Assembly: GCA_963726265.1 (NCBI GenBank) | Contig: CAVSBQ010000002.1 | Span: 6,486-70,485 of the forward strand | Direction of reading: 5' to 3' | DNA length: 64,000 nucleotides | Source of the DNA: Candidatus Aenigmatarchaeota archaeon | GTDB taxonomy: Archaea > Aenigmatarchaeota > Aenigmatarchaeia > QMZP01 > QMZT01 | Part shown: positions 4,871-63,487 of the stretch, piece by piece | How positions within the stretch are numbered: the first letter of the stretch is position 1 | Layout of the letters: each line of letters begins with the position of its first letter | Notes under the pieces: generated by a model | Seen by the model: only the letters and a program-made list of their open reading frames with translations | The model's database searches: none | What the model was told of the DNA's origin: nothing | Made by a program: the position numbers and the translations under genes

Positions 4871-5108
4871 CGCCGGGAACAGGATTCGAACCTGTGTGGG
4901 CTTGCGCAAGCGCAAGCATCCGCATGACGCACGCTTCGCGCGCGTCGGTCTGCTTAAGCCTTTTTCGCCCACCGGATCTCCCGAAGGATTGCTGGGGTTG
5001 CTCCTCATGTTCCGCCGATCAGAGTCAAGCCATGAAGTCATCGCGCCACAAGGGCGCTCGTAAGATCCAGTTCTCAAGTCCGGCGCGTTACCGCTCCGCC
5101 ATCCCGGC
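4871..5108 (-). tRNA. tRNA-Ser(UGA), class II, with two insertions (putative introns); no encoded CCA
   Basis: On the reverse strand the acceptor GCCGGGA pairs with TCCCGGC. The D arm is GCG/GAGCGGTAA/CGC. The anticodon stem is CCGGA/TCCGG with loop CUUGAGA. The T arm is ACAGG-TTCGAAT-CCTGT and the discriminator is G. The two anticodon-stem halves are separated by ~95 nt (4977-5071). The variable-arm stem TGGGC/GCCCA encloses ~65 nt (4902-4966). Confidence 0.8.
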
Positions 5109-11930: not shown

Positions 11931-12335
11931 ATGTCCGCAGACGAGCCCGTAAATCTGGATTCTATTGAAATCAACCTTACTGCGAGCATGGTCTGCGCGA
12001 ACCTGAACCGCCTCTGCATCCTTTATCTTCTGAGGAAATGCGACAACAATGCGATGCAGGCGGAGAAAATCGCTTCCACGTTAGGCATCTCGCACAGGAC
12101 GGTCCTCTACCACCTCGACATCCTGAAGGACTACGGATTAGTCGAAGTGCGCGAGTTCAGGAAAAAGGGTGCGAAGCTCCTGCGCTCGGTCTGGGGCCTC
12201 AGCGGGGAGAACGACGACGACGTCGAGAAGGTCTTCGGCAGGATCTACAGGAAGTTCGAGACGGACGCGCTGGACAAGATGGTGAGGTTCAGCCAGAACG
12301 GCATGGCCTCGTGCTCGAGGAAGAAGCTGAACTGA
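11931..12335 (+). CDS. ArsR-family winged-helix transcriptional regulator
   Basis: RLCILYLLRK...MQAEKIASTLGISHRTVLYHLDILKDYGLVEV is a typical ArsR/SmtB HTH. Confidence 0.8.
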   Translation: MSADEPVNLDSIEINLTASMVCANLNRLCILYLLRKCDNNAMQAEKIASTLGISHRTVLYHLDILKDYGLVEVREFRKKGAKLLRSVWGLSGENDDDVEKVFGRIYRKFETDALDKMVRFSQNGMASCSRKKLN

Positions 12336-12450
12336 CATAACCATCTTTTTTGAAAACATGAGCAAGGCAAAGCTCCAGAACATCGCTGATTATGGTCAAA
12401 ACCATCCGTTTTTAAGGTTTTTATACCGGGAATTGACATAATTTTATTTA

Positions 12451-12467
12451 TACCGGGATTCCCGGTA
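12451..12467. promoter_or_regulatory. perfect 8-1-8 palindrome TACCGGGA-T-TCCCGGTA upstream of the AbiEi-like gene; candidate operator
   Basis: The palindrome is seen directly. The half-site-containing string TTTATACCGGGA also occurs at 12420-12431. It lies ~80 nt upstream of the 12548 start in an AT-rich promoter-like region. Confidence 0.4.
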
Positions 12468-12547
12468 AAAACGAAGTGTTATATGATAACTTTATATACT
12501 TTATAATTTATATTATAAAATCATAAAAATGTGATTTTGTGATATGT

Positions 12548-13180
12548 ATGAAAAAGGATATCATACTTAAAAAATTGTACCTCGATGGCAAAGATTTCGT
12601 CACTTCAGGCGATATCAAGGAATATTGCGCTTCCCTGGAACTGAAATATGATTCCACGTTCAGATATTTGCTTTCGAGAAAATATCTAATAAGAATTTTC
12701 AAGGGCGTATTCTACCTGAAAACGCTCGACGAGACAAAGTTCGGAAGAAACAAATACAGCCCTCTTGAACTGGTTGCAAAGGGCCTTGAGATGAAAGGCG
12801 TGAAAAAATGGTATTTCGGCCTTTATAGCGCTCTAAAAATGAACAACATGACTCATGAAAATTTCACAGTGGATTACGTAATGAATGACAAGATATTCAG
12901 GGCGAAACCCATGGAAATAGCGGACTCTAAATTCAGATTCCTGAAGATCAGGGACAACCTGCTCGATTTCGGGATTATAGGCGATAAAATAAGGCATTCC
13001 GACCCAGAAAAAACAATTCTCGATTTCATCTACATCTGGCGTTATAACGGAATACCGGAAGATAAAATAATAATGGACATATCGGAATATTCAAAGAACG
13101 CCTCGCGAAAAAAGCTTGCAGATTACGCGAAAAAATACCCCAAATCGGTAAGAATGATTACGGATAAAGTGGTTGGATGA
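12548..13180 (+). CDS. AbiEi-like antitoxin / wHTH regulator (type IV TA family)
   Basis: The region is low in GC. LIRIFKGVFYLKT, WYFGLYSALKMNNMT and HSDPEKTILDFIY match the AbiEi-family pattern. It overlaps the downstream NTase gene by 4 nt. Confidence 0.7.
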   Translation: MKKDIILKKLYLDGKDFVTSGDIKEYCASLELKYDSTFRYLLSRKYLIRIFKGVFYLKTLDETKFGRNKYSPLELVAKGLEMKGVKKWYFGLYSALKMNNMTHENFTVDYVMNDKIFRAKPMEIADSKFRFLKIRDNLLDFGIIGDKIRHSDPEKTILDFIYIWRYNGIPEDKIIMDISEYSKNASRKKLADYAKKYPKSVRMITDKVVG

Positions 13181-14058
13181 GAAAGGATTTCGTGAACGAG
13201 GTCGCAAAAAAACTGAAAATAAAAAGAAAAGACCTCGTGGAGAAGGATTTTATCCTGCACCAGCTTCTTTCGAGCCTTTCAGAGGACAAATTCTTCCGTG
13301 AAAACTTCCTGTTCAAAGGGGGCACGTGCCTTATCAAATGCTATTTGGGATATTTCAGGTTCTCTGAAGACATGGATTTCACCTGGAAAAAACAAGAGGC
13401 GTTTAAGGGGAGGTCACAGAAGGCAATAAGGCGCCACCTCTCGGAAATCATAAACGCCGTGGGAAAATTGCTTGAAAAAGCGGCAAAGGAGAACGGCCTT
13501 GATTTCCGGTGCGACAAGAAAGACAGGCATTACGTTGAGCTTGGCGGAGGAAACAAAATCGTCACCTTCAAGATGTGGTACGCTTCCGGATTCCTGAACC
13601 GCGAATCCTTCGTGAAAATCCAGATAAATTTCCTCGAAAACCTGCATTTCCCAGGCGTTAAAAAACCCGCAAAGAGCTTATTGGAAGCAGGCAAACAAAC
13701 CGATGAAATCCGGTTGCTCTTTCCGGATGAGTTCAAACAATATTCAAAAAGAGTAGCATTCGATATTTACGATATCAGGGAAATACTGTGCGAAAAAATA
13801 AGGGCCATGCTCACCAGAAAAGGAACGAAAGCGAGGGATTTCGTCGACGTATACCTGATTTCCAAAAAATTCGGCATCAGACCAGAAAGCCTCGAAAAGG
13901 TAATCGAGGAAAAGATCACGTTCATGATGAAGCTCTATTCGAAATATAAAAACAACATCAGCGAAAAGAGACGCCTGCTGGAAACACTGCAGGAAACCCG
14001 AACGTTGTCTATGAGACTGATTACGTTGACACCACGAAGCCCCACACGGAGAAGGTAG
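13177..14058 (+). CDS. AbiEii/DUF1814-family nucleotidyltransferase toxin; the 3' end runs into foreign (giant-gene) sequence
   Basis: FLFKGGTCLIKCYLGYFRFSEDMDFTW is the NTase core of AbiEii. After ~aa 270 (about 13,985) both GC content and sequence switch to the giant-protein repeat read out of frame (...TLSMRLITLTPRSPTRRR*). Confidence 0.7.
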   Translation: MRKDFVNEVAKKLKIKRKDLVEKDFILHQLLSSLSEDKFFRENFLFKGGTCLIKCYLGYFRFSEDMDFTWKKQEAFKGRSQKAIRRHLSEIINAVGKLLEKAAKENGLDFRCDKKDRHYVELGGGNKIVTFKMWYASGFLNRESFVKIQINFLENLHFPGVKKPAKSLLEAGKQTDEIRLLFPDEFKQYSKRVAFDIYDIREILCEKIRAMLTRKGTKARDFVDVYLISKKFGIRPESLEKVIEEKITFMMKLYSKYKNNISEKRRLLETLQETRTLSMRLITLTPRSPTRRR

Positions 14059-17000
14059 TCACGGGCCCGCAGGAACCAGGCACTGGCAACATCCACAAAT
14101 ACATAACCAACAACACAGTGATAGAGCTCACGTGCACTGACCAGCAGCCACACCCATCAGACCATGTGACCCTTAACTGGCAACTCTACTGGAGCCAGAG
14201 CTGCGTCGAGCCGAATTGGCAGCCGATAGACAGCGGCAGCGAGACTGACGGCAACGTTCAGTTAACGAACCTTGAAGATTCGTGCCACAAGCTTGTCTAC
14301 TACTGCGCGGACATCCTTGGCAACACGGAAGACACGCAGGTCGAGATAGACGCGGTCGACAACAAATACCCGCTTGTGCACAAGGATGTCGGCCAGTTCA
14401 AGTATCCGTATTCAGGCGCACCTTTCATGTACATAGAAGCCTACGATGTTGAGGACGCACCTGTGTATGTGACGCAGGGGACCCCGATAACACTGACATG
14501 CGAAGACCAGAACCCGCACCCGGTCGACCAGGTCAAGATATACTACAAATATTACGTGGACGGGATAATCAACGATACGCAGGGCGAGGACTGGACCCTT
14601 TACGGCGGCCAGTTCACTTACCCAGAGGACACATACCACGAGCTGTATTATTATTGCATAGACAAGCTCGGCAACAAGGGACCGACGCACGTCGAGATGG
14701 ACATAGTCGACACGCAGAAACCCCAGACTGTGAAGACCATCACTGGTCCGCAGTTCAACGGCCAGGGCAACATACACAAGTACATAACGAAAGATTCGGT
14801 AATTGACCTTACATGCACGGATCCGCAGCCTCATCCGGTAGACCACGTAACCCTTAACTGGAAACTCTACTGGAGCCAGAACTGCGTCGAACCTTTATGG
14901 ACGCAGATAGGCAGCGGCAGCGAGACTGACGGCAACGTTCAGTTAACGAACCTTGAAGATTCGTGCCACAAGCTTGTCTATTACTGCGTCGATGCCCTGA
15001 ACAACATTGAAAGCACTCAGGAAGAAATAGACGCGGTCGACAACCAGGCGCCGAACGGCACCAAGAACGTCGGCAACCCGGCTATACCTTGCATTCAGAT
15101 GCCACCCGTTGACGGACCTGGTTTGACGATGACAGTTGCACCGCAGCCCGACTGCTACTGGGTCCGCGACCACGTCACAAACATAACGCTTGACTGCACT
15201 GACGCACAGCCTCACCCAATCGGCGGAGAGGTAATGTGCTACCAGATAAAGTTCGACGGCGAAACCTCAGACCTTACACAGCAATACTGCACGCAGTTCG
15301 GCGGCAAGATGGAAGACGGATGGTGCTGCGCTGACGTAGCAGGCGAAAAGAGCTACAAATTCGACTTCCAGGAAGATTCCGTTCACACGCTTGAATACTA
15401 CTGCAAGGACGCTTTCAACAACCAGAACCTGAAAGACCTTGAGACGTTCAAGGTCGATTCAGTCCCGCCAACGACGATAAAGACGTACATCAATCCGTTC
15501 TACGTGGACCCGCAGACAGGCTATCATTACATAGACACGGCATCGAGGGTCAATCTCACGGCGACTGACGGCGGAGCCATCTGCCACGTCGAAGGCATGA
15601 CGACATACTACTGGTACACGGTCGTACCTGATAACTATTGCACGGGAGCATGCGCCCCGATGGAGCACAAGGAATGGAGCGTCTACTCCGAGCCCTTCGG
15701 AATCCCGGAGGAATCGTGCCACCTTATAGAGTTCTACAGCGTGGACGCGCTGGGCAACAAGGAGCAGAAGCACTACCAGTGTGTGTTCGTCGACAAGAAG
15801 GCGCCTGTGACGACGAAGAGCTACGGGACCCCGAGATATCCAAACGATGCGTTGCATCCGAAGTGGATAAACTCCAGCACGGACATAACGCTGACGGCCG
15901 TGGACCAGACGCCACATCCGTCCGGAGTCAAGGAATTGAATTACAGGGTAACCCTTGTGGACAAAGACTATTGCGAGAACACTGAGCTTTGCCTGCGCGG
16001 AGTGCCAGGCCTCGACAAAGCGTACGACAAGGCATCGCCATTGCTTTATGGCGTTGATGGCAGCGCGAGCTACACGTTCAGGATACCCGACGACTCGTGC
16101 CACATGATAGAATACTACAGCGTAGACAATGTTGGCAAGACAGAACCGGTCAGAAGACAGTGCGTATACGTGGACAACCTGCCGCCGAATTCGACGAAGA
16201 CTTTCGACGGCTTCAACATGACATGCGACCAGCTGCCCTGCAAGAGCGCGGGCGACTGCAACTACTACATAAACAAGGACACGAAGATAGTCCTGAGCTG
16301 CACAGACCAGAACCCGCACCCGGTCGACCAGGTCAAGATAATGTACAGATACTTCCTGGACGACGTAATCAATGCAACGCAGGGCAAGGACTGGACCTTA
16401 TACGATCCGCAGAATCCGATACAATACAATGAAGATTCAAAGCACACTCTCGAATGGTACTGCGAGGACGCCCTCGGCAACAGGGAAACGACTCACACCC
16501 AGGTAGAGAGAGTAGACACGACCCCGCCGACAACGGTCAAGACGTTCAGCGGCCCGACATACCCGTTAGACGAGGCTAATCCCAACTACTGGGTGACATC
16601 GGACACCGCGATAACGCTGACGACGACTGACGGCGGACCGATATGCGCGGCAGGACCTGCAACACTTTATTATCAGGTGTGGTGGGACTCCAACTGCGAC
16701 GGAACTGTCGACACTAAACAGGTGGACAGCCACGTGCACACGGACGCGAACTGCAACCTCAACAAGACATTATATCTTCAGAAGGAATGCCTTCACGAGA
16801 TAAAGTGGCATGCAGTTGACGCGCTCGGCAACGTCGAGACAGAGCACGTGCAGTTCCACAAAGTCGACAACACTCCTCCGCACGTCCTGATACTGAAGCC
16901 GGTTGACGGCTGGTATTCTGACGGCGAGGACATAGCGATTGTCACTGAAGCCGAAGACCTGAACAACGTGAACAGCTCTTGCGAACAGAGAGGCGGTGTT

Positions 17001-20000
17001 TGCGATGTGATAGGCATCGGCATATCCTGCGGCAATCCGAACGACTGCAACGGCCTTGGTACAAACTGCGCGGTCGGCATAGCCGAGGATGCGCAGTGCT
17101 ACGCGTACCTTGTCGACGTTGAGAGGACGATTGACAACATAAGGGACAAGAAGATACAGCAGATAATGATAGAGAACATGTCGCTTGACACTGACGGCAC
17201 GCTGCTTTACAACAAGGCAACCAAGCAGTGCGAAGGCTACGCCACAATCCCGGCCGAGAGCGGTCTTGAGGATGGCATAAAGATACTTGTCGTCGGAGTC
17301 GCGGACAACCTGCACAACTACGCAGACAGCCTTGACGAGATAGGCAGGGCCATAAACGAGAGATGCGGCTGCGACGTCTTCGACATGTGCGACAGCGAAT
17401 GCGTCAGGGACGCATTGCAGGACATAGTATTAATATGGAACCTGCCGAAGATCGGCATAGACAACCACGCTCCAGTCGTGGAGATAACTGCGCCTTCAGA
17501 GAACTCGCTGTTCGGCGGCGAACAGGTATACGTTAGCGCCGAAGTGAGCGATTCCGAGAGCGGCCAGGTAACCTCGACGATAACGAGCGGCACGCCATGC
17601 TACATAACGCTTGGCGGCGTCTCGATGGGATCTGTCCCGTACCAGAACGACGCGAGAAAATGCGCGGGAACCATAATGATACCCGAGGACAACGACTTCC
17701 CGCAGGGAACGCAGAGCCTCGAGGTTAGTGTAGCCGACAACGCGGGCAACATCGGAAGCGATTCGATAAACGTTAACGTTGACACTACAAAGCCGGAAAT
17801 ATACGTCGACTACCCTGATGAAAACATGTTCGTAAAGGGCACGGTCGGCGTAGAAATTGTGGTCAGAGACTCCAACCTTCCCGGCGAGCCGACATCGTCA
17901 GACCCGAAAGACCTGCACGAATACGTCGAGGTCTCCACGGACAACGGCCAGACATGGGAAGTAACCGAGAACTGCGCCTACTGGGGCGTTGGCCACTACA
18001 AATGCACTTACAGCTGGGACACGACCAGCGAAACTGACGGCATGGCATACGGCATAGTCGCGCAGAATGACCGACCTTGCCGACAACACGCAGATACTCC
18101 GAGGCCGTGCTCGTGATAGTCGACAACGGCGCGCCGGAAGGCGTGTACATGGTCGACCCGGTCAAGGACAAGATAGTGCAGGGCACGATAACGCTTAAAG
18201 CGCTCGCCACGGATTACGTGAGCGGCGTGACAGGCGTCAATATATACGTCAACAGCGTCCCGTCATTCAATTGCGTTGCAACATTAGTTGGCGGGACATG
18301 GCAATGCAGTTTCAACAGCGCGACATTGCCTGACGGACAGCACAGCGCATATGCGGTTGCGACTGACAAGCTTGGTCAGACAACGACATCGGCGAGCGTG
18401 CCGTTCATCATTGACAACAACGCGCCAAGCACCCCCGTGCTTAGCATATACCCGACAACGAATGGCTACGACACCGACGGCGTGGTGACATGGAAATGGA
18501 CTGACGCTACGGATGCCGGTTCAGGCATAGATTATTATGTAATAGAAATAGGCAGCCCCGTCGTGTACCAGAGCAAGGTCTTTGGAACAATATTCACCAT
18601 AAGCGACCTTTCAGAGACGTCTCATTGCGCAAAGGTAAAGGCTGTCGACAAGGCGGGCCATGAAAGCGCATGGTCAAGTACAGCATGCACAATAGTTGAC
18701 AAGACACCGCCGTCACCGGTCAGCATAGGCGTTGACACGGAGACTGTGGACAAATTTGCCGGCGGAGTCTACTACGACAGGGACGGCGAATTCGACGTGA
18801 TCTGGAGCGGTGGCAGCGACGCGAAGTTCGACCACTTCCAGCTTTACGAGAACGGCGCCGGCGAATACCAGGACACGAACTACAGGTCAACTAGATTCAA
18901 GGAAGACGGAACATACAAATATTACGTGACCTCGAACGACCTTGCAGGCTGGACGACCAAATCAGGCGAAGTCACGGTCGTGGTTGACACGCACGCGCCA
19001 GTCGTGGACATAACAAACATGTATCCGGGAATAGGATTCTTCCTGTTCACGTACACGGCCACCGACGCTGACCCGAGCTCTGGCATAGACTCGCTGGTAG
19101 TCAGCGGCATAGAAGGGCCGGCCTACGGCATTTGCTCAGGAACGCTTCCGACTGGCTTCTGCACGGTGTTCATGGGAACAGCGGCGAAGCTGACAGCATG
19201 CGACAAGGCAGGCAACTGCGGCTACGACACGACACTCGGAAACCACGCTGACATAACGCCACCGACAATAATCTACTCTTCACCCAGCGGCGTGATAAAG
19301 TACAACCAGGTCACAATTAACGTAACCACGGACGAGGCTGCAAGCTGCTACTACAGCGATGTCGACGACCTTGAAGGCATGGATGACATGATCAGCAACG
19401 ACATGATACATCACTCGGTCAGCCTAGGCACGCTTGCGGACGGCCTGTACGTCTACCACGTGCAGTGCGAGGACATGTCGGGCAACATGATGGACCACTC
19501 GAAGACGATAGTCTTCTACGTGAACACCGACAGCCAGTATTGCTACAGAACAGAAGAACTTAAGGCGGGATGGAACACGTTCTTCCTGCCGCAGCTTGTC
19601 TTGGACGACATCAACTTCAACTGCGGTAGCAAGCCGTACGCGACTGAAGACGTGCTGAGTTCAATGGAAGGCAAGTATAGCATAATCTGGTACTATGATG
19701 GTCAAAACTGGCTTTCATATGACCCGATGTATCCGGAATACTCGACACTTACGCAGTTCAACGACCAGTTAAGTAATCCATACTACATAAAGCTGACCGA
19801 GCCTGTGAAGCTCGGCTTACAGTGTGACCAGGGATGTCAAAAGGAAGTGACAGGCGGCCAGTGCGTCGAAGGCGAGCAGCCTTCATGGGCGATATACAAG
19901 GACGGTCTTTACTGGGCATGGGCTTCGCCTTGCGACGGCGGATGCAGCCAGGCATATCCGAACAACGTTCCGGGATGGAGATACGCTACTGTAGAAGAAT

Positions 20001-27760: not shown

Positions 27761-28619
27761 TCATTTCTTGTAGAAGAGGCGGTTCGTCCTGCCGACGCGC
27801 TCCTTCTCGACCAGGCCTTTCGCTTCCAGCTTCTTCACCAGCCTCGTCATCTTCGCCCGCGAGAATTTCAGCTCCTTCCCGACCTTGTTCTGCATTATCC
27901 TTTTTTCCTTGGCGAGGATGAGCAGAAGCCTGCGCTCGTCCTCGGAGAAGCCGCGCTCGAACTCGTGTTTCATCCTTCTTCCTGTAATACGCTACAAGGT
28001 AGGCGCTATCGGCAACAATGGCGAAGCCCATCACGGCCATCACGATAAGCGAGTAGTCGCTGTTCGTGTTGTAGAACTTCAGCGACACCAGCGTCTCCAC
28101 GCCGCCTTCCGGGTGCCATGCGATGTAAATCCTCTCGCCGTCGCTGAGTAGTTTCATGCGCTTCGGGATAGACCACGTTCCTGTATACCGCGAAACCGGC
28201 CGGCAGGAAGGCCCTTATGCTAATCCTGTCCGCCTGCGGCGGCTTCAGGCTGGCCGAAAAGCTGTAGACGCTATCGCTGGAAAAAACAAGGTCCTTTGCC
28301 GTGAAGCGCATGAGCAGCCTTTCCGTCGCTTGGGGCGACGGTGAACCTGACGTTGTATTCGCCGCCGCTTTTATCCAGGGTGTACTGGGATGCTGTTAAC
28401 GCCGTCGGAGACCGAGAGGTCGGATATCTCCCCGAGGACGGCGTAGTTCAGCGAGCTGGCGTTGAGCGCAGAGGCGAAGGCCATCGAGACGCTCTCGTGA
28501 ACGCTCGTGTCTGGCATTATCTCGAATGTGATATTGTAGTCGGATATGTCCAGCGCGCTCGCTGCATGCGCAGCAAGGGCCAGCCATAAAAACAATACAG
28601 CAACAACTGCTCCTCTCAT
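27761..28619 (-). pseudogene. membrane-anchored protein with C-terminal MarR/TrmB-like wHTH, four frame disruptions
   Basis: A coherent protein can be traced through four frame changes. It runs signal peptide (MRGAVVAVLFLWLALAAHA), then QYTLDKSGGEYNVRFTVAPSDGK, then LLMRFTAKDLVFSS..., then MKLLSDGERIYIAW...TM(LIVMAVMGFAIVA), then wHTH (ERRLLLILAKEKRIMQNKVGKELKFSRAKMTRLVKKLEAKGLVEKE). Confidence 0.65.
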
Positions 28620-28855
28620 AATTCAAAAATAAAGGAAATGGAAATAAATTGGTTTTCAGTCAGCGAAGTGTCCAGTTTATTCCTTTTTGTGCTCGTGTTT
28701 CGCTTCCGCGTGCTCGGCCTTGTGTTCGTTTTTGCGCTTCCGTGTGGCCTTCATGCGCGTGTTCCGCAGGTTTCTCGTGATGAGCTTCCTTGTGTTCCTT
28801 CGCTTCTTCGTGCTTCTTTTCGGCATGCTCCGCTTTGTGCTCTTCCTTGTGTTCC

Positions 28856-29715: not shown

Positions 29716-30508
29716 ATGGATTTTGATGAAGGAGGGCTGTTCTCGAGGCAGATTCCGTTTCTCGGTGAGGAGAGGCAGGACGCGCTTTCTAAGGCGAAAG
29801 TCGCCGTCATCGGCGCCGGAGGCCTGGGCAGCTTCGTCTCCTCGCTGCTGGTGAGGGCAGGCGTCGGCGTCATCCGCATAATCGACCCTGACGTGGTCGA
29901 GCTTTCCAACCTTCCGAGAACGATTATATACAGGCAGAAGGATGCCGGCAAATCCAAGGCGTTCATACTCGCGGAGCGCCTGTCGGGCATTAACCCCGAT
30001 TCCAGGGTCGACGGGAAGATAGAGAGCTTCAATGCTTACAAAGCGGAAAAGCTGCTCGCGGGCTTCGGCGTGGTGGCCGACTGCACTGACAGCATGGCGT
30101 CACGCCACGAGATAAACAGGTTCTGCGTGGATAACAGGCTTCCGTGGGTTCACGGCGCGGTGACCAGGGACGAGGGCGTCTCAGCGACATTCGCAGCGGC
30201 GGAAGGCCGTGCTTCAACTGCCTCTATCACGACAAGATGGACGAGATGCGAATGAGGCGGAAAAAACAGGCGCAGTAAAAACCGGCGACGCCGGAGTCAT
30301 CGGCCCTGCTGTTGCGACCGTCGCGGCATGGCAGTCTATGGAAGTGATAAAGATAATCACGGGCCTGGCCGAACCGAATTATGGCAAGCTTTACAGACTG
30401 AAGCTCGGCAGGCCGGGCTTCGAGATTCTCGCGCTCAAACCCTGGGAGGACTGCGGCGTGTGCGGCAAGGACATGCTGAGCAGAAGGCTCAGGGACAAAG
30501 AGGGATAG
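29716..30508 (+). pseudogene. ThiF/MoeB/HesA-family E1-like adenylyltransferase, two frame disruptions (~30,195 and ~30,250)
   Basis: KVAVIGAGGLGSFVSSLLVRAGVGVIRIIDPDVVELSNLPR is the Rossmann/E1 motif. The CFNCLY Cys motif falls in the middle frame. The C-terminal part reads GVIGPAVATVAAWQSMEVIKIITG ... CGVCG. Confidence 0.75.
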
Positions 30509-30511
30509 ACG

Positions 30512-31661
30512 ATGCTCAGGAAAATGTTCAGGAAAAAAATAATCATCAAATACGGCGAGCTCTGGCTGAAATCAGAGCCGGTGCGCATGCGCTTTTTGGA
30601 AACGCTCGCCTGACAACGTGAGAAGCCAGCTCAAGCGGGCTGGGGTAAGGGACTTCAGACTGGAGAAAGACGAGGGACATGCTGATTCTCGAGTGCACGC
30701 ACAGGAAATGCCCCGAGGTTCTCGGAAAGGTTTTCGGGGTTTCATGGTTCGCTTTCGCAGTTGAGACGCAGCCGACGATGAAGGCGATAGAGAAGCCCGT
30801 GCTCGCGCTCGCGAAAAAAATCGGCAGGGAGCAGACCTTCGCCGTCCGCGCGAGCAGGAGCGACAAGACGCTCGCCGTTCACCAGCAAGGACGTCGAGAA
30901 CAGGATGGGCGCCAAGATAAGGAGGAAGGTCGACCTTTCGAAGCCCGACGTCACGCTTTTCATCGAGTTCAGAAAGGACAGGGCTTATGTTTATTCGGAA
31001 AAGATAAGGGGCGCGGGAGGGCTTCCATACGGCGTTACGGGCAAGGTCCTGTCGCTCATTTCAGGAGGCATCGATTCGCCCGTCGCGAGCTGGCTCATGA
31101 TGAAACGCGGCTGCTCGGTCGATTTCGTTCACTTCAACGCCGTGGAAAGCGATGTCGCGAAACTCAAAGGCCTGGTGAAGAAACTCGGCGAATATGCGCC
31201 CGCGAAGCTCGCGCTTCACGCAGTGCCTTTCGCGATCTGTCCAGGAGGCGATTGTGAAGCACTGCGAGCGCCGCTTCACCTGCGTGCTCTGCAAGAGGCT
31301 CATGTACAAGGCCGCGGCGCAGCTCGCGGAAACGACGAAAGCGAAGGCGTTGGTGACTGGCGAAAACTTGGCCCAGGTCGCTTCCCAGACGCTGGACAAT
31401 CTCGTCGCGAATGACGATGCGGTTTCGCTGCCGCTTTTCAGGCCGCTGCTGTGCATGGACAAGGAGGAGACCATCATCCTCGCGAAGAAAATCGGGACAT
31501 ATGACCTCTCGATAAAGCAGGCGCACGCATGCAGGTTCGTGCCGCGCAAGCCGGCCACTGCCGCAAAAAGCGGAGTCCTCGTGCGCGAGGAAAAGAGGAT
31601 AAAGCAGCTGGACAGAATCGTAAAGAAGGCGGTAAGCTCGCCGATAAAAACGCTGGTGTGA
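30512..31661 (+). pseudogene. thiI: tRNA 4-thiouridine synthase ThiI, four frame disruptions
   Basis: IIIKYGELWLKSEPVR is the N-terminal ferredoxin-like/THUMP start. VLSLISGGIDSPVASWLMMKRG is the PP-loop SGGxDS. LVTGENLAQVASQTLDNL is also present. The frames change at ~30,609, ~30,676, ~30,876 and ~31,240. Confidence 0.85.
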
Positions 31662-31663
31662 AA

Positions 31664-32177
31664 ATGGCCAAAAAGAAAAAGTTCAGGAATGCGCTTTTCA
31701 TCGGCCGCTTCCAGCCGTTCCACGACGGCCATCTCAAGGTCATCCAGGACATCGCGCAGGAAAGCGAGGCGCTCGTCATAGTCATCGCAGGCCCCGCCCG
31801 GCCGGACCGCAGGAATCCCTTCTCGTTCAAAGAGCGGAAGCGCATGGTTCAGCTCGCGCTGCGCGGCGAAGGGATAAAATATTCGATACACGAGACCCAT
31901 GACGTCAACGACGACGGGAGATGGAACAGGCACGTCAAAAAGTTCGGCCGCTTCGACGTCGCGTATTCTCGCAATCCCTGGACGGCGCGCTGTCTCAAGG
32001 CGCTTGGCATCCCCGTGAAAAAGCACAGGTTCTACGAGCGCTACAAGAACTGCGGCAGGGAAATAAGAAAGCGCATCCTGCACGGGAAGCGCTGGGATTC
32101 TCTGGTGCCGCAGGCTGTTTACAGCGTACGTCAGGAAAATAAACGGCGAGGCAAGGCTGAAAACAATATGCAAATAA
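31664..32177 (+). pseudogene. nicotinamide-nucleotide adenylyltransferase (archaeal NMNAT type), C-terminal frame disruption (~32,125)
   Basis: ALFIGRFQPFHDGHLKVI is the (H/T)xGH motif. After ...WDSLVPQAVY the plausible ending YVRKINGEARLKTICK* lies in the +1 frame. The span is 3n+1. Confidence 0.75.
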
Positions 32178-32202
32178 AAATCTTAGCCGCGTTTAATACC
32201 TT

Positions 32203-32403
32203 ATGGGTTCCGTTTCTGATGGTGATTCGAAAAGCCTGCATCTTAAATGCTGGTGCGGGCATGAATATGATGTTCCGAACAACCTCGTCTTAATGGATGA
32301 TGGCCTGACCCATCAATACAACATATCTGGCAAATGTCCTAGTTGCGGAAAAGAAAGCGATCATAATTTGCTGTATGATTCCAAAACAAGAAACTTGACA
32401 TAA
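32203..32403 (+). CDS. small zinc-ribbon-like protein
   Basis: 66-aa ORF with CWCGH ... CPSCG. It lies at the left edge of the low-GC islet. Confidence 0.4.
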   Translation: MGSVSDGDSKSLHLKCWCGHEYDVPNNLVLMDDGLTHQYNISGKCPSCGKESDHNLLYDSKTRNLT

Positions 32404-32542
32404 CGCTTGCGTGAATTCTCCGGCCGCGTTCCCGGTAAAAACCGCTATACTTCGTCCAAATTTATGGGTTTTCATAAAAAGAGACAAATATTATCACCCT
32501 CAGTCTTTATATATTTTATTTCTAACTTATTAGTAATAAATT

Positions 32543-34141
32543 ATGAAAAAAAGGAAATATGAAGATGGAGAAGGTCAGAAAATAGCTGCTCAGAAAGTTC
32601 GTGACCTGTTAAAAAGGTTGGATATTTCCGAAGAAAAGATACCTGATGAACTGAGCGCAAGACTATTTTACGATAATGGAGCGGCGTCTCTCCTTTCTAT
32701 TGCCTATAACAGTTCAACTATAAGGGCAATTGAGGCTGCATATCCTGGTAAATTCAAACCTTGGCAGTTCAAACGAAAACCAAAAGGCATATGGCAGGGG
32801 GGAAATGCTTACAAAAATGCAGCGGAAGCAACCAGATGGCTGGTGGAGGAAAAACTCAAAATTTCTCTCAAAAAAGCCTCAAAAAAGGTAACCAGAGATG
32901 TTTTCACAGAATATGGATTATCTGGGATGTTAGATACCCTCTTTGGTGGGAACCCTTATCGTGCACTAGTCAATGCCTACCCCAAACTATATAAAGTTAG
33001 TGATGTTCAAAAAACTGAAAAGAGGGGAATAGAATCCACGGAAATTAGTGATGACGATAAAGAATTTATAATTAAGAGATTTGAGCCATTAGCAAAGTAT
33101 TTGGCTTCCAAATATTTGCATCAGACCAAGTCATTAAAATATGATGATTTGGTTCAGATGGGTAGGATTGGAGTTTACTTTGCTGTAAGAGATTTAGGCT
33201 TAACCAAAAAAAACTTCAAGAGATTCAGCAGACAAATAAAATATTACATAATCAATACAGTGAGAGATGCTATCAATAAAGGATACGACAGAATACTTGA
33301 TTTCTCATGCAGTGTGGATGACTATGTCTTCGAAAATAACAAAAAAAGATCTCTCGTGGAGATAATAACTGAAAAACACAAGGAACTTTTTGGTGAAAGA
33401 ATTTTAACTTCCAAAGAAAGGAATTTGAGGTTCTATGGCATCTTAGAAAGGGGACTTTCTAAAGAGGAATACGAAAAATTAAAGGAGGAAATAGCAAAAA
33501 CCATTACGAGACTAGAAACGAGAATGGCTAATATCTCTTGGGATCCTATGGACGAGGCTTTGGAATTTGTTAGAAAATATGCACCTCGTCATAAAAATAC
33601 CCAGAAATGGGAACTTGGAAAACGTACAAATCTATGGGGAGGAGGAGCGGGAAGAAGGTTGGCAAAACAAGCTATACGTTACCTGTTTGAAGAAAAGCTA
33701 AAAATCCCAGAGGAAACAATCCCAGAGGTTACAAGTAGCCGTCTATTTCACGATAATGGATTGGGTGGTATGCTGCTTCAACTTTACGATGGTATGTCAT
33801 TTTTAGCAGTAAGTGATGCTTATCCAAATAAATTCAAACCTTGGGAATTTAAAAACAGACCGCATCTATGGGGAACTAAGGATGGAATGAAATACGCGGC
33901 GGAAGCAACCAGATGGCTGGTGGAGGAAAAACTGGGGATTCCGCCAAATGAGGCATTGAAAAAAGTCAAAGCACAGGACTTCAAAGATTATAGATTATGG
34001 GGGATGCTGATGACACTTTTTAAAGGTGATGGTGGATACCATCATGCCATTTTAAATGCCTATCCTGAATTAGTCCAAGCGGATCAGCCTACTGGAGATA
34101 TAAATCCACATATAAGAAAATCTAATAATAGCTATAGATGA
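32543..34141 (+). CDS. protein with a sigma-70-like core (regions 2 and 4-like) flanked by two copies of a ~145-aa unknown domain
   Basis: Intact 532-aa ORF in a low-GC region. The centre reads LAKYLASKYLHQTKSLKYDDLVQMGRIGVYFAVRDLG..FKRFSRQIKYYIINTVRDAI (compare sigma-70 r2 ..KY....L.DLIQEGNIGL..AV.KF...FSTYA...I..AI) and LTSKERNLRFYG...TITRLETR (compare r4 L..RE..VL.LRFG...RIRQIE). N-terminal aa ~20-165 and C-terminal aa ~370-515 are paralogous. An exact 35-nt repeat lies at 32822-32856 and 33899-33933 (AAEATRWLVEEKL). Confidence 0.75.
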   Translation: MKKRKYEDGEGQKIAAQKVRDLLKRLDISEEKIPDELSARLFYDNGAASLLSIAYNSSTIRAIEAAYPGKFKPWQFKRKPKGIWQGGNAYKNAAEATRWLVEEKLKISLKKASKKVTRDVFTEYGLSGMLDTLFGGNPYRALVNAYPKLYKVSDVQKTEKRGIESTEISDDDKEFIIKRFEPLAKYLASKYLHQTKSLKYDDLVQMGRIGVYFAVRDLGLTKKNFKRFSRQIKYYIINTVRDAINKGYDRILDFSCSVDDYVFENNKKRSLVEIITEKHKELFGERILTSKERNLRFYGILERGLSKEEYEKLKEEIAKTITRLETRMANISWDPMDEALEFVRKYAPRHKNTQKWELGKRTNLWGGGAGRRLAKQAIRYLFEEKLKIPEETIPEVTSSRLFHDNGLGGMLLQLYDGMSFLAVSDAYPNKFKPWEFKNRPHLWGTKDGMKYAAEATRWLVEEKLGIPPNEALKKVKAQDFKDYRLWGMLMTLFKGDGGYHHAILNAYPELVQADQPTGDINPHIRKSNNSYR

Positions 34142-34220
34142 AATAAATCAAGATTGGAATTCTATTTAGGAAGGGCTAAAGCCTTAAGAAAAAATGCCGT
34201 ATGCGCCGGCCGCGGACTTA

Positions 34221-34715
34221 TTATTTGCCCAGGACTTTCCCGCTCGTGTCGATTTCCTTTGCGCGTATCCTCGTCGATGAAATCCTTTCCCGGTCGTCTG
34301 AAAGTTCCGCGGGCACGCCGAATATATAAACTTCGTAAAGACCGCTTTCCCTCCTTCTCAGATTAAGTTTGTATGCCTTGGCCAGGGAGTCTTGGCCTAC
34401 AATCATGACCTCGCTGAGATTTCGAAATTTGCAACTGGTGCAGTCCTCTTTGCCGTCAAGCGGCAGTATCTCGAATCTGCCTCCGTAAAATTGATACAGA
34501 TGTTCGTACAACTTCCCGAATCTCTCGTCATAAGGTTGTATCAATTCCCGGAAATGCTTTTTTGAGAATTCACCAATATATCTGTCAGTCGTGAGTCTTA
34601 CGACAACGCTGTCGGAAAGATTGAATGCATAACTGAACAACTTTTTGTGGCCTTCATGCAGGGGTCCGTAAGTCCCTCCCGTGCAGGCGCAGATGAACAT
34701 GCGGGGGTCCTTCAT
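34221..34715 (-). CDS. archaeal-type phosphopantetheine adenylyltransferase-like cytidylyltransferase (paralog 1, lower GC)
   Basis: CACTGGTYGPLHEGHKKLF is the (T/H)xGH nucleotidyltransferase motif. The C-terminus reads ISSTRIRAKEIDTSGKVLGK. Confidence 0.7.
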   Translation of the reverse strand: MKDPRMFICACTGGTYGPLHEGHKKLFSYAFNLSDSVVVRLTTDRYIGEFSKKHFRELIQPYDERFGKLYEHLYQFYGGRFEILPLDGKEDCTSCKFRNLSEVMIVGQDSLAKAYKLNLRRRESGLYEVYIFGVPAELSDDRERISSTRIRAKEIDTSGKVLGK

Positions 34716-34812
34716 AGTGAAACATTGGCAAAAAATTTTAAAAATAGCTCATTTCCCTAAAATCTTCCCATGCTTGTCGATTTCATTCGCCCTTCAGGAA
34801 ATCGCTCTGACT

Positions 34813-35304
34813 TCACTTTCTTCCTTTCAGGATTTTCCCGCTCCTGTTGATTTCATTCGCACTTATGCGCGTCGACGAGATGGGCGCCCTGTCGGAGGCC
34901 AGGATCATGCCGATTTGCACTATTTCCAGCGGCTTCATGCCGTAGTCCTCGCGGATGAGGTTTATGCCTCTCGCGCCTGCTATGGTATCGCCGCTGACGA
35001 TTATCGCCTCTATGCCCTTCTTCGGGTCGAGCACCTCGGGCGAGAAAAAATTCTCCAGCGGCGAAATGCGGTAGCGTTTTTTATCTGCTTTTATGGAAGC
35101 CATGAATTTCACAAGACTCGCTTTCCTTTTCTCGAATTCGCTCACCCCGCGCTTGCCCCTGCGCATGGCGTACTCATCGCTCGACAGGCCGATGTAGCAG
35201 AACTGCGCGACCTCAAACGCCTTTCTGATCAGCGCCTCGTGGCCCTTGTGCAAAGGGACGTCGAAAGTCCCGCCGAAGCAGGCGGCCTTGTATTTCTTCT
35301 TCAT
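34813..35304 (-). CDS. archaeal-type phosphopantetheine adenylyltransferase (paralog 2)
   Basis: ACFGGTFDVPLHKGHEALI and ISSTRISANEINRSGKIL are present. The protein is 163 aa, as expected for the archaeal PPAT (COG1019-like) family. Confidence 0.75.
   Translation of the reverse strand: MKKKYKAACFGGTFDVPLHKGHEALIRKAFEVAQFCYIGLSSDEYAMRRGKRGVSEFEKRKASLVKFMASIKADKKRYRISPLENFFSPEVLDPKKGIEAIIVSGDTIAGARGINLIREDYGMKPLEIVQIGMILASDRAPISSTRISANEINRSGKILKGRK

Positions 35305-56085: not shown

Positions 56086-63487
<7,402 letters not shown>

What the first reader, a model, noticed from the sequence alone, without database searches (positions are those of the whole stretch)
32180..34720. Low-GC islet encoding a sigma-70-like protein flanked by a duplicated unknown domain, in an archaeal context
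GC content drops sharply between the NMNAT gene and the resident PPAT gene. The islet carries a small zinc-ribbon ORF, a 532-aa intact ORF and a second, lower-GC PPAT paralog. The centre of the 532-aa protein resembles bacterial sigma-70 region 2 (KY..L.YDDLVQMGRIGVYFAV...F.......I...I) and weakly region 4 (LTSKERNLRFYG...TRLETR). Archaea do not use sigma factors, so this would be a bacterial- or virus-derived module. The core sits between two copies of a ~145-aa domain. Each copy contains two sub-repeats of the form F..(Y/N)GL.GML...(s)..A...AYP.(K)FKPW(E/Q)F. I do not recognise this architecture. An exact 35-nt repeat (32822-32856 and 33899-33933) inside otherwise diverged copies hints at gene conversion or a nucleotide-level constraint.
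Basis: partly seen in the sequence, partly recalled or inferred. Interest (0 to 1): 0.72.

Follow-up and report, generated by a model that had tools for sequence, protein, structure and literature searches.

The report
Sigma-like repeat gene inserted in archaeon
A 2-kb piece of foreign, AT-rich DNA in an archaeal chromosome carries one intact gene that fuses a bacterial-type sigma-factor module to four copies of an uncharacterised helical repeat (DUF4046). Its few relatives with an informative context are also in archaea, which have no known use for sigma factors.

Summary

**The insertion**
- Window 32178-34235 (about 2.06 kb, GC 0.38 against 0.53 ± 0.03) lies between the convergent 3' ends of NMNAT and a second PPAT gene.
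- Syntenic relatives (L016, L018) have those two gene ends overlapping, with nothing between them.

**The gene**
- The 532-aa ORF (32543-34141) reads two DUF4046 units, a sigma core, two DUF4046 units.
- The core (aa 164-356) is a divergent two-domain sigma-70-family module, SigH/ECF-like.
- An exhaustive profile search returned 782 hits. Beyond a few close relatives, the top-listed hits are about 200 aa long, and the six of those checked carry Sigma70_r2, five of them also r4_2.
- Only five other representative clusters among 1.84 billion share the core closely. Two lie on clearly archaeal contigs.
- The nearest relative is 65% identical and is the central cassette of a 1657-aa multi-sigma, multi-DUF4046 protein.
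- No viral hits were found. dN/dS is about 0.2.

- The 35-nt exact repeat is a short gene-conversion tract.
- A tandem PPAT pair occurs in several relatives, so it is not islet cargo. The window's copy is a recently imported allele, 94.5% identical to one relative against 71-77% for the flanking genes.

Function is inferred only. It is probably a basic, DNA-associated regulator uncoupled from bacterial RNA polymerase. Sigma-70 genes in DPANN archaea were reported in 2021. I found no description of this fusion architecture.

The parts
31667..32177 (+). NMNAT gene, left flank of the insertion. Its native C-terminus (...AYVRKINGEARLKTICK*, stop at 32175-32177) is reached only after a +1 shift near 32123. 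As assembled, the ORF runs on to 32293.
   Evidence: Homology to M. jannaschii NMNAT 1f9a runs to residue 155 of 168. Relatives end ...KIEGExRIRGL* and the window matches this in the shifted frame.
32178..34235 (.). Inserted low-GC DNA (about 2.06 kb), absent from syntenic relatives.
   Evidence: In L016 and L018, NMNAT and PPAT2 are convergent with overlapping 3' ends. The window has about 2.1 kb between the homologous blocks, which end at 32109-32163 and resume at 34236-34273. GC 0.381, z = -4.55; tetranucleotide distance is above every other window.
32203..32403 (+). 66-aa ORF with two Cys pairs (KCWC...CPSC). A possible zinc ribbon; it is uncertain whether this is a real gene.
   Evidence: ORF list. 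Only sub-threshold zinc-ribbon hits. No exact match on record. No similarity to neighbours of the homologs.
32415..32428 (+). GC-rich direct repeat, left copy (ATTCTCCGGCCGCG). Its partner is at 34201-34214. The two copies bracket the sigma-DUF4046 gene.
   Evidence: Family D7 (12 of 14 identical, 9-nt exact core). Not significant on its own.
32506..32513 (+). TTTATATA, an archaeal TATA-box-like element 30 nt upstream of the ATG.
   Evidence: Sequence. Its function is inferred, not tested.
32543..34141 (+). Sigma-DUF4046 gene, 532 aa, net charge +26.
32570..32998 (+). N-terminal pair of DUF4046 units (aa 10-77 and 86-152). Each unit is a five-helix bundle.
   Evidence: Local jackhmmer unit mapping. 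AlphaFold model of aa 8-152: pLDDT 96.8, pTM 0.86. No structural match in PDB or BFVD.
33032..33610 (+). Sigma-70-family core (aa 164-356). Regions 2.1-2.4 lie at about aa 170-250 and a region-4-like helix-turn-helix at about aa 288-345.
   Evidence: NCBIfam and Pfam, exhaustive profile search, Pfam on the hits, PDB sequence search, alignment with SigH-type sigma factors. AlphaFold confidence is low here (pLDDT 31-68 for aa 150-290, 72-93 for aa 290-350).
33638..34069 (+). C-terminal pair of DUF4046 units (aa 366-437 and 446-509).
32822..32856 (+). Exact 35-nt repeat, copy 1, encoding AEATRWLVEEK. This is the recipient of a short gene-conversion tract.
33899..33933 (+). Exact 35-nt repeat, copy 2, the probable donor of the conversion tract.
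34201..34214 (+). GC-rich direct repeat, right copy (ATGCGCCGGCCGCG).
   Evidence: family D7.
34221..34715 (-). PPAT2, the second phosphopantetheine adenylyltransferase gene. Its last codons (...TSGKVLGK*) differ from all relatives and abut the insertion.
   Evidence: NCBIfam NF001985 at 102.7 bits. It belongs to a 90% cluster with P0273-P0276. C-termini compared.
34236..34784 (.). 549-bp segment 94.5% identical in DNA to relatives L008-L011, while the flanking core genes are only 71-77% identical. This is a recently imported PPAT2 allele.
   Evidence: blastn. The same gene in L016 and L018 is 71-76% identical.
34749..34793 (-). 15-codon remnant (RANEIDKHGKILGK*) of the 3' tip of an L008-type PPAT1, brought in with the imported segment.
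   Evidence: (family D2).
34813..35304 (-). Resident PPAT1.
   Evidence: NF001985 at 138.4 bits. 70-73% nt identity to PPAT1 of the relatives.

Best explanation
Shown:
- An archaeal chromosome acquired about 2.06 kb of foreign low-GC DNA exactly at the junction where the 3' ends of NMNAT and PPAT2 overlap in its relatives.
- The insert carries one long intact gene. Its product is a strongly basic 532-aa protein: a divergent but complete two-domain sigma-70-family module (SigH/ECF-like sigma-2 plus sigma-4) between two pairs of DUF4046 five-helix repeat units.
- It belongs to a very small family. The two other members with informative context lie on archaeal contigs, and some members are giant proteins with two or three sigma-like modules and up to about 14 DUF4046 units.
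- The window gene equals the central cassette of such a protein.
- The gene evolved under purifying selection, and its repeats exchange sequence by gene conversion.

Inferred:
- The immediate donor was another low-GC archaeon.
- The protein is expressed from an archaeal TATA-type promoter.
- Because no bacterial core RNA polymerase is expected in an archaeon, it does not act as a classical initiation factor. It more likely acts as a DNA-associated regulator or architectural protein.
- In that role the sigma module would supply helix-turn-helix and sigma-2 DNA recognition. The DUF4046 arrays would supply an extended binding or multimerisation scaffold, or an in-built control of the sigma module comparable to the fused extensions of some ECF sigma factors.
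- It spreads as a solo gene, without recognisable mobility genes.
For: Insertion: empty site in L016 and L018, with 70-80% nt synteny over window 22.7-41.1 kb. Composition outlier.

Sigma homology: NF006147 E=1.8e-9 over both domains. 782 profile hits; beyond the close relatives the top-listed hits are about 200 aa long, and the six checked carry Sigma70_r2, five of them also r4_2. A word-index search found only a bona fide sigma factor, E=2.4e-5 against 5.8 billion sequences. PDB sequence hits are sigma factors only. The alignment with SigH-type sigma factors is collinear. Relatives pass the Pfam r2 cut-off: P0120 at 42.7 bits, P0096 at 30.8 bits.

DUF4046: above the Pfam cut-off; four units; confident five-helix model.

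Family and archaeal context: P0012 is 41% identical and collinear, on a contig with TFE, TBP and MCM. P0118 is 65% identical over the whole window protein, on a contig with exosome, L37ae, aCPSF1 and proteasome genes, again in a lower-GC stretch. Module map.

Selection: dN 0.21, dS 1.10, ratio about 0.19; core 0.24.

DNA association: net charge +26. In other proteins DUF4046 is fused to sigma-4-type or HTH_24, HTH_7, integrase and sigma-2 domains.

Promoter-like TATA box.

No viral signal. No defence-system match.
Against: - All sigma matches of the window protein itself fall below curated cut-offs (Sigma70_r2 19.5 bits against 24; TIGR02937 24 against 42.9).
- Region 4 is seen only through full-length NCBIfam models and an alignment.
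- AlphaFold is not confident in the core, so the fold is not confirmed structurally.
- The window gene matches only an internal segment of its nearest relative and ends right after the last repeat, so it could be a truncated copy.
- The dN/dS value mostly reflects history before the transfer.
- No expression data, no conserved neighbours, no binding partner and no target are known. The functional part is inference.
- The donor lineage and the host lineage were not identified. The source genome was not found among GTDB species representatives.
- No mobility gene or significant terminal repeat explains how the insertion happened.
Confidence: 0.6

Rival explanations
1. Inert relic. The ORF is a piece of a giant sigma-DUF4046 gene that arrived by illegitimate recombination. 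It happens to remain open and has no function in this host.
For: It aligns only to residues 437-951 of the 1657-aa P0118. Its Met1 corresponds to an internal residue, and the sequence diverges and stops right after the last AYPEL motif, where the relatives continue. The transfer is recent, judged by composition. There are no conserved partner genes.
Against: A 532-codon open frame in 38% GC DNA is unlikely to persist by chance. P0012 is a stand-alone gene with the same layout: two units, core, two units. A TATA-like box sits at the right distance. dN/dS is about 0.19. Gene conversion shows that the repeats evolved after the lineage diverged from the L012 copy.
Confidence: 0.2
2. Remnant of an integrated archaeal virus or plasmid, in which the sigma-like protein is a host-takeover or element-maintenance factor.
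For: Low-GC islets carry the family in two hosts (window and L012). DUF4046 arrays are common on Bacillus and Priestia plasmids, one of them next to a rep gene. Phages are known to encode sigma factors (general knowledge; PHROG 351 gives a weak hit, E=0.007).
Against: There is no integrase, capsid, replication or partition gene in the 2 kb. No tRNA lies at the site. No match was found in IMG/VR (three scans), GenBank phages or BFVD. In L001 the gene has the host's own composition and sits among core genes.
Confidence: 0.12
3. Assembly chimera or contamination. A bacterial fragment was stitched into an archaeal contig.
For: The window shows several apparent frameshifts (NMNAT, ThiI, MoeB), which suggests an error-prone assembly. 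Both modules are typical of Bacillota.
Against: The closest homologs are themselves on archaeal contigs from unrelated samples. Both junctions fall exactly at the ends of two genes that are neighbours in relatives. PPAT2's junction-specific C-terminus (TSGKVLGK*) also occurs in an independent Logan contig, P0276.
Confidence: 0.04
4. A working sigma factor that directs a bacterial-type RNA polymerase.
For: Regions 2.1-2.4 and 4 align with SigH-type sigma factors, including the conserved D..Q.G motif of region 2.2.
Against: The context is archaeal: an intron-containing tRNA, archaeal-type PPAT and NMNAT, and in the homolog contigs TBP, TFE, MCM and the exosome. Archaea have no bacterial core enzyme (established knowledge). 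The acidic residue that follows the conserved Gln in region 2.2 of the aligned sigma factors is replaced by Met, Val or Ile in this family.
Confidence: 0.03

Closest known systems
SigH/ECF-size two-domain sigma-70-family factors (Pfam Sigma70_r2 PF04542 with Sigma70_r4_2 PF08281; NCBIfam PRK08295/SigH models, TIGR02937)
   Same: Length and order of the core. Regions 2.1-2.4 and 4.1-4.2 are collinear. These are the best profile hits, and a reciprocal profile search retrieves such factors.
   Different: Scores are below every curated cut-off. The core is embedded between repeat arrays and encoded in archaea. The acidic residue after the conserved Gln of region 2.2 is lost. No RNA polymerase partner is available.
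Sigma-70-class genes reported in DPANN archaea, especially Woesearchaeota (family fam00359 of Castelle et al. 2021, PMC8204110)
   Same: Bacterial-type sigma genes sit in archaeal genomes, mis-binning was excluded there too, no anti-sigma factor is found, and the function is unknown.
   Different: That paper does not mention any fusion to DUF4046 or any giant multi-sigma proteins. Whether this family is part of fam00359 could not be checked, because the supplementary files held do not contain the term.
DUF4046 (PF13255) repeat proteins of Bacillota, e.g. the 1064-aa array on B. thuringiensis plasmid pHS18-4
   Same: The same repeat unit with a period of about 75 aa and the same W / AYPxKFKPWEF / ATRWLIEEKL signature. 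Typically solo genes in variable or mobile regions.
   Different: Most are pure arrays of 4-15 units with no sigma module, and they are bacterial. No function or structure is known for them.
ECF sigma factors with fused regulatory extensions (ECF41/ECF42-type; recalled from general knowledge, not tested here)
   Same: A small sigma module is covalently joined to helical non-sigma domains that could regulate it in cis, and there is no separate anti-sigma gene.
   Different: Those extensions are C-terminal only, of other folds (SnoaL-like, TPR), and bacterial. Here the extensions are on both sides and consist of DUF4046.

Membership tests
Sigma-70 family (Pfam PF04542/PF08281; TIGR02937) | Region 2 match at or above the curated cut-off | tested here: not met
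   The window protein scores 19.5 bits against a cut-off of 24 for Sigma70_r2, and 24 against 42.9 for TIGR02937. Family relatives do pass: P0120 at 42.7 bits and P0096 at 30.8 bits.
Sigma-70 family | Homology to sigma factors across both sigma-2 and sigma-4, supported in both search directions | tested here: met
   NF006147 E=1.8e-9, aa 170-345 against positions 21-194 of 201. The core profile retrieves 782 proteins; many of the roughly 200-aa top hits align over positions about 5-175 of the 181-position profile, and the six checked carry Sigma70_r2, five of them also r4_2. PDB hits are sigma factors only.
Sigma-70 family | Region 4.2 helix-turn-helix recognisable | tested here: inconclusive
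   No Pfam r4 hit in the window protein. Three helices at aa 290-326 have pLDDT 72-93. MAFFT places the family's WDPxxEAL helix on the 4.2 recognition helix.
Sigma-70 family | Sigma-2 and sigma-4 fold | tested here: inconclusive
   The AlphaFold core has pLDDT 31-68 over aa 150-290. The full-length Foldseek search gave no significant match.
Sigma-70 family | Binds bacterial core RNA polymerase and directs promoter-specific initiation | not testable with these tools
   This requires biochemistry. The host context is archaeal.
DUF4046 (PF13255) | Profile match above the gathering score, with repeat units present | tested here: met
   25.5 bits against 22.8. Four units were mapped. 103 homologs were found through this domain.
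Horizontally acquired genomic islet | Atypical composition | tested here: met
   GC z = -4.55. The tetranucleotide distance exceeds that of all other windows.
Horizontally acquired genomic islet | Absent from the same site in related genomes | tested here: met
   In L016 and L018, NMNAT and PPAT2 abut or overlap. In L019, NMNAT abuts PPAT1.
Horizontally acquired genomic islet | Mobility genes or significant terminal repeats | tested here: not met
   No integrase or transposase. No tRNA at the site. Only a 14-nt imperfect direct repeat is present.
Provirus or viral sigma factor | Homologs on viral contigs, or viral hallmark genes nearby | tested here: not met
   IMG/VR three times, GenBank phages and BFVD were all negative. 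The only PHROG hit is weak, E=0.007.
Known anti-phage defence systems (PADLOC-DB) | Match to a defence-system protein model | tested here: not met
   No hits for the protein, its relatives or the L012 neighbour.
DPANN sigma-70 family fam00359 (Castelle et al. 2021) | Membership in that protein cluster | not testable with these tools
   The family's sequences and table are not in the supplementary files held.

The most novel reading that the evidence does not exclude
Sigma-DUF4046 proteins are an archaeal adaptation of the bacterial sigma module. On this reading, the sigma-2 and sigma-4 core has been re-purposed to act on archaeal transcription or chromatin. It could dock on the homologous clamp coiled-coil of archaeal RNA polymerase, or bind promoter DNA without the polymerase. 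The DUF4046 arrays would be a new nucleic-acid-binding or assembly repeat. The gene would spread between archaea as a self-contained unit. That would make it the first functional use of a sigma-type factor outside Bacteria and their organelles and viruses.
Probability: 0.12. Interest if true: 0.9.

Novelty: new variant of a known kind. Interest (0 to 1): 0.6.

Why it matters
Sigma factors are treated as a defining feature of bacterial transcription. Archaea initiate with TBP, TFB and TFE. Sigma-70-class genes have been noticed in DPANN genomes, but nobody knows what they do.

This locus adds three things:
- A cleanly delimited recent transfer of such a gene into another archaeal chromosome, with an empty site in relatives.
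- Evidence that the gene family is kept under purifying selection on archaeal contigs.
- An architecture I found no description of, which ties the sigma module to DUF4046. That repeat is widespread and confidently folded, yet has no structural relative and no mention in the searchable literature.

The result is a compact 532-aa construct that could be used to test whether a sigma module can work without bacterial RNA polymerase, and to find out what DUF4046 binds. If the protein turns out to be inert cargo, the locus is still a tidy example of recombination at overlapping convergent gene ends.

Tried and rejected
- **Source contig.** An exact look-up of P0001 and of three neighbouring window proteins failed, except for FtsZ.
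- **Word-index searches.** The search with the core profile gave one hit. The search with the N-terminus of P0118 gave none.
- **Metagenome scan.** The scan with the core profile gave none.
- **Viral origin.** Three IMG/VR scans, GenBank phages and BFVD were all negative.
- **Defence system.** PADLOC was negative. The weak ABC-3C CTD6 and EAD6 hits are far below cut-off and were dropped.
- **Fold of DUF4046.** Foldseek against PDB and BFVD, and a profile search against PDB sequences, gave nothing significant. The weak resemblances to tandem SAM domains and to phage Ltp have E > 2 and were rejected.
- **Spurious Pfam hits.** Many Pfam hits in DUF4046 arrays (LURAP, SAM_KSR1, CAMSAP_CH and others) report no stretch that passes the threshold on its own, and were treated as probable repeat artefacts.
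- **Conserved neighbourhood.** There are no shared neighbours among the window, L001, L002, L012, L013 and L015. The multi-HTH neighbours in L012 and L013 are not homologous by BLASTP.
- **645-aa gene in L008.** The idea that this gene, which occupies the same position, is a homolog was rejected: no similarity, and it is CARDB-like.
- **Bacterial promoters.** Bacterial-type promoter motifs in the islet are not enriched, 6 found against 6.6 expected.
- **Plasmid contexts.** DUF4046 contexts on plasmids are heterogeneous and gave no functional hint.


Full report
**1. The observation**

The region is as described.
- GC drops from about 0.57 to 0.33-0.42 between 32.2 and 34.2 kb.
- Taken as 32176-34236, the stretch has GC 0.381 against 0.528 ± 0.032 for every other window of equal length (z = -4.55, lower than all of them).
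- Its tetranucleotide distance from the rest of the window is 0.563, against 0.242 ± 0.053 (maximum 0.377).
- The ORFs are a 66-aa Cys-pair ORF (32203-32403), a 532-aa ORF (32543-34141), a 164-aa PPAT (34221-34715, minus strand) and the 163-aa resident PPAT (34813-35304, minus strand). The two PPATs are 32% identical.
- The exact 35-nt repeat is confirmed at the stated coordinates and does not extend further.

**2. The protein**

*Profile hits.*
- Pfam finds DUF4046 (PF13255) above its cut-off, and Sigma70_r2 below its cut-off (E=8.7e-4, aa 177-242).
- NCBIfam gives thirteen sigma-factor models. The best is the SigH-like NF006147 at E=1.8e-9, spanning aa 170-345 against positions 21-194 of 201, which covers both sigma-2 and sigma-4.

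*The flanks.*
- They consist of four DUF4046 units (aa 10-77, 86-152, 366-437, 446-509). The family's period is about 75 aa.
- Unit 1 resembles unit 3, and unit 2 resembles unit 4. The two flanks are 48.6% identical to each other but 72% and 77.5% identical to the corresponding flanks of the relative P0118. The internal duplication therefore predates the split from P0118.
- A two-unit flank is predicted with very high confidence (pLDDT 96.8, pTM 0.86) as two five-helix bundles.
- Foldseek against PDB and BFVD, and a profile search of PDB sequences, found nothing significant.
- The searchable literature does not mention DUF4046 or PF13255.

*The sigma core.*
- I built a core-only profile and ran the exhaustive HMMER search. 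It returned 782 proteins at E ≤ 1e-3.
- Beyond a handful of close relatives, the top-listed hits are about 200 aa long, and many align over positions about 5-175 of the profile.
- The six of these checked carry Sigma70_r2, and five of them also Sigma70_r4_2.
- The word-index search found only a bona fide sigma factor, E=2.4e-5 against 5.8 billion sequences.
- The only PDB sequence hits are FliA, SigF and other sigma factors.
- An alignment with the best SigH-type hits is collinear through regions 2.1-2.4 and 4.1-4.2.
- The homology is therefore real, but the window protein is below every curated threshold. AlphaFold is not confident in aa 150-290, so the fold is not independently confirmed.
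- The protein is strongly basic, with net charge +26.

**3. The family**

- Of the 103 word-index homologs, almost all match only through DUF4046. They are mostly Clostridia and Bacilli proteins with 4-6 units.
- 254 Bacillus, Priestia and Clostridium plasmids carry such genes. One is a 1064-aa array of about 15 units next to a rep gene.
- Other partner domains of DUF4046 are sigma-4-type or HTH_24 helix-turn-helix domains, HTH_7, a tyrosine integrase and a GspE ATPase. Most of these are DNA-related.
- Only five other representative clusters share the sigma core closely: P0012, P0096, P0118, P0119 and P0120.
- P0012 (606 aa) is collinear with the window protein at 41% identity.
- P0118 (1657 aa) is 65% identical to the window protein over its whole length, but only across its own residues 437-951.
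- A local HMM map shows P0118 and P0120 as: degenerate sigma, DUF4046, complete sigma, two DUF4046 units, (in P0118) a partial sigma-4, then a long DUF4046 array.
- The window gene is therefore the central cassette of this design. P0012 shows that the cassette also exists as a stand-alone gene.

**4. Where the family lives**

- P0012 lies on a 14.8-kb contig with TFE-alpha, TBP, MCM, RPA, aIF2-beta and aIF1A, at the contig's own low GC.
- P0118 lies on a 75-kb contig with exosome RNase PH, L37ae, prefoldin, SepF, aCPSF1 and a proteasome subunit. There the gene and an upstream 575-aa multi-HTH gene occupy a 34-38% GC stretch next to 42-53% GC core genes.
- The contigs of P0096, P0119 and P0120 are too short to judge.
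- No conserved neighbours exist among the loci.
- Three IMG/VR scans, GenBank phages and BFVD gave no hit. PADLOC gave none.
- Castelle et al. 2021 (PMC8204110) already reported sigma-70-class genes in DPANN archaea, especially Woesearchaeota, with no anti-sigma factors and an unclear role. They do not mention this fusion.

**5. The islet and its borders**

A metagenome scan with the NMNAT protein recovered relatives of the host.
- L016 is syntenic with window 22.7-41.1 kb at 70-80% nt identity. There, and in L018, the order is NMNAT, then convergent PPAT2, PPAT1, MarC and FtsZ. The NMNAT and PPAT2 3' ends overlap by about 13 nt.
- L019 lacks PPAT2.
- The window has about 2.06 kb between these two gene ends. 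This is direct empty-site evidence of insertion.
- The native NMNAT C-terminus is still present (stop at 32175-32177), but in a frame shifted by one base near 32123. The apparent 36-codon extension into the islet is therefore a frameshift artefact or a mutation.
- On the right, homology to relatives resumes at 34236. PPAT2's last eight codons (TSGKVLGK*) are unique to this junction. They recur in an independent short contig (P0276), which argues against a chimera.

**6. The PPAT pair**

- The second PPAT is not cargo of the sigma islet. The PPAT2-PPAT1 tandem occurs in L008-L010, L016 and L018, and L014 also has a second PPAT gene downstream of PPAT1.
- However, window 34236-34784 is 94.5% identical in DNA to the L008 group. 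This segment holds PPAT2, the spacer, and a 15-codon remnant of an L008-type PPAT1 tip.
- The adjacent PPAT1/MarC block is 71.3% identical to L008 and FtsZ is 76.9% identical. PPAT2 of L016 and L018 is 71-76% identical to the window's.
- This allele was therefore imported recently from an L008-like relative.
- It may have arrived in a separate event, or together with the sigma gene from a donor that already carried it. I cannot tell which.
- The locus is clearly a recombination hot spot. L014 has two extra genes between PPAT1 and MarC, and L008 carries an unrelated CARDB-like gene after PPAT2.

**7. Is the gene alive?**

- Against the L012 ortholog, dN = 0.21 and dS = 1.10, a ratio of about 0.19 (N-flank 0.21, core 0.24, C-flank 0.12). 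dS is close to saturation, and most of this divergence predates the transfer.
- The frame is open for 532 codons in 38% GC DNA.
- A TTTATATA box lies 30 nt upstream of the ATG.
- Bacterial promoter motifs are not enriched.
- The 35-nt identity is a conversion tract. In L012 the two motif copies differ at two amino acids (K/R, I/V) and at several synonymous sites. In the window, copy 1 carries copy 2's residues and codons.

**8. Interpretation**

*Shown.*
- A recent 2-kb insertion at a defined site in an archaeal chromosome.
- A divergent sigma-70-family core flanked by DUF4046 pairs.
- A rare family with archaeal contexts and purifying selection.
- Gene conversion between the repeats.

*Inferred.*
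- The immediate donor was a low-GC archaeon.
- The protein works as a DNA-associated regulator or architectural protein without bacterial RNA polymerase.
- The DUF4046 arrays act as a scaffold or as a cis-regulator of the sigma module.

*Rivals.*
- The main rival is that this copy is an inert fragment of a giant gene.
- Viral or plasmid remnant, assembly chimera and canonical sigma function are less likely, for the reasons given under the rival explanations.

**9. Verdict**

The finding is genuine, and the sigma reading survives testing. It is not unprecedented, because sigma-70 genes in DPANN archaea are known.

The sigma-DUF4046 architecture, the giant multi-sigma relatives and the unmatched DUF4046 fold appear undescribed. 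Interest 0.6; new variant of a known kind.

Noticed in passing
window 11931-14058: A second low-GC stretch (GC 0.43-0.46) carries an ArsR-type HTH gene (11931-12335), a 213-aa ORF (12539-13180) and an AbiEii nucleotidyltransferase toxin (13177-14058; PF08843, E=6.6e-27). This is probably an acquired type IV toxin-antitoxin cassette.
   Followed up: partly
window ~30200-30260, ~31200-31260, ~32123: MoeB/ThiF-like, ThiI and NMNAT genes each appear split or extended by a frame change, while relatives are collinear at the DNA level. These are either indel errors in the assembly or real pseudogenisation.
   Followed up: partly
window 34236-34784 and 34749-34793: The PPAT2 allele is 94.5% identical to the L008 group, against 71-77% for the flanking genes. 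A duplicated 15-codon PPAT1 tip sits at its edge. This is a recent allele import by illegitimate or homeologous recombination.
   Followed up: yes
window 32415-32428 and 34201-34214: A GC-rich imperfect direct repeat (ATTCTCCGGCCGCG / ATGCGCCGGCCGCG) brackets the sigma-DUF4046 gene inside otherwise AT-rich DNA. It could be a target duplication or recombination site. It is not significant on its own.
   Followed up: no
window 4871-5108 (-): Rfam finds a tRNA spread over 238 nt (39.1 bits), implying a long intron. ARAGORN finds no tRNA anywhere in the window.
   Followed up: no
L012 8269-9996: A 575-aa gene directly upstream of the giant sigma-DUF4046 gene (4-nt gap) contains several sigma-4-like helix-turn-helix motifs (weak Sigma70_r4 and MzaA hits) and shares the low GC. 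P0119 in L013 also has a multi-HTH neighbour (HTH_7, HTH_38), but the two are not homologous by BLASTP.
   Followed up: partly
L014 733-2692; L008 10547-12484; L019 10482-10553: The region around the PPAT genes differs in every relative. L014 has an arginine deiminase and a 221-aa gene between PPAT1 and MarC. L008 has a CARDB-like 645-aa gene after PPAT2. L019 lacks PPAT2. The site is a hot spot of gene flux.
   Followed up: partly
window 14118-18116 and 57974-63487: Two very long ORFs (1332 and 1837 aa) are present. The first visibly contains repeated segments (for example the recurring 'LTCTDQ(Q/N)PHP' motif). Relatives in L008 encode large proteins with PKD, He_PIG, fn3 and Laminin_G_3 domains. 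These are probably surface proteins.
   Followed up: no
window 28590-28829: tblastn shows weak similarity (26%, E=2e-5) to the 166-aa protein encoded just downstream of P0012 in L001. Its significance is unknown.
   Followed up: no
L004 9902-10669: A 255-aa protein made only of DUF4046 units is encoded in a 31% GC contig labelled Candidatus Bathyarchaeia. A Nanoarchaeota hit (P0094) also exists. DUF4046 alone is therefore present in archaea too.
   Followed up: partly
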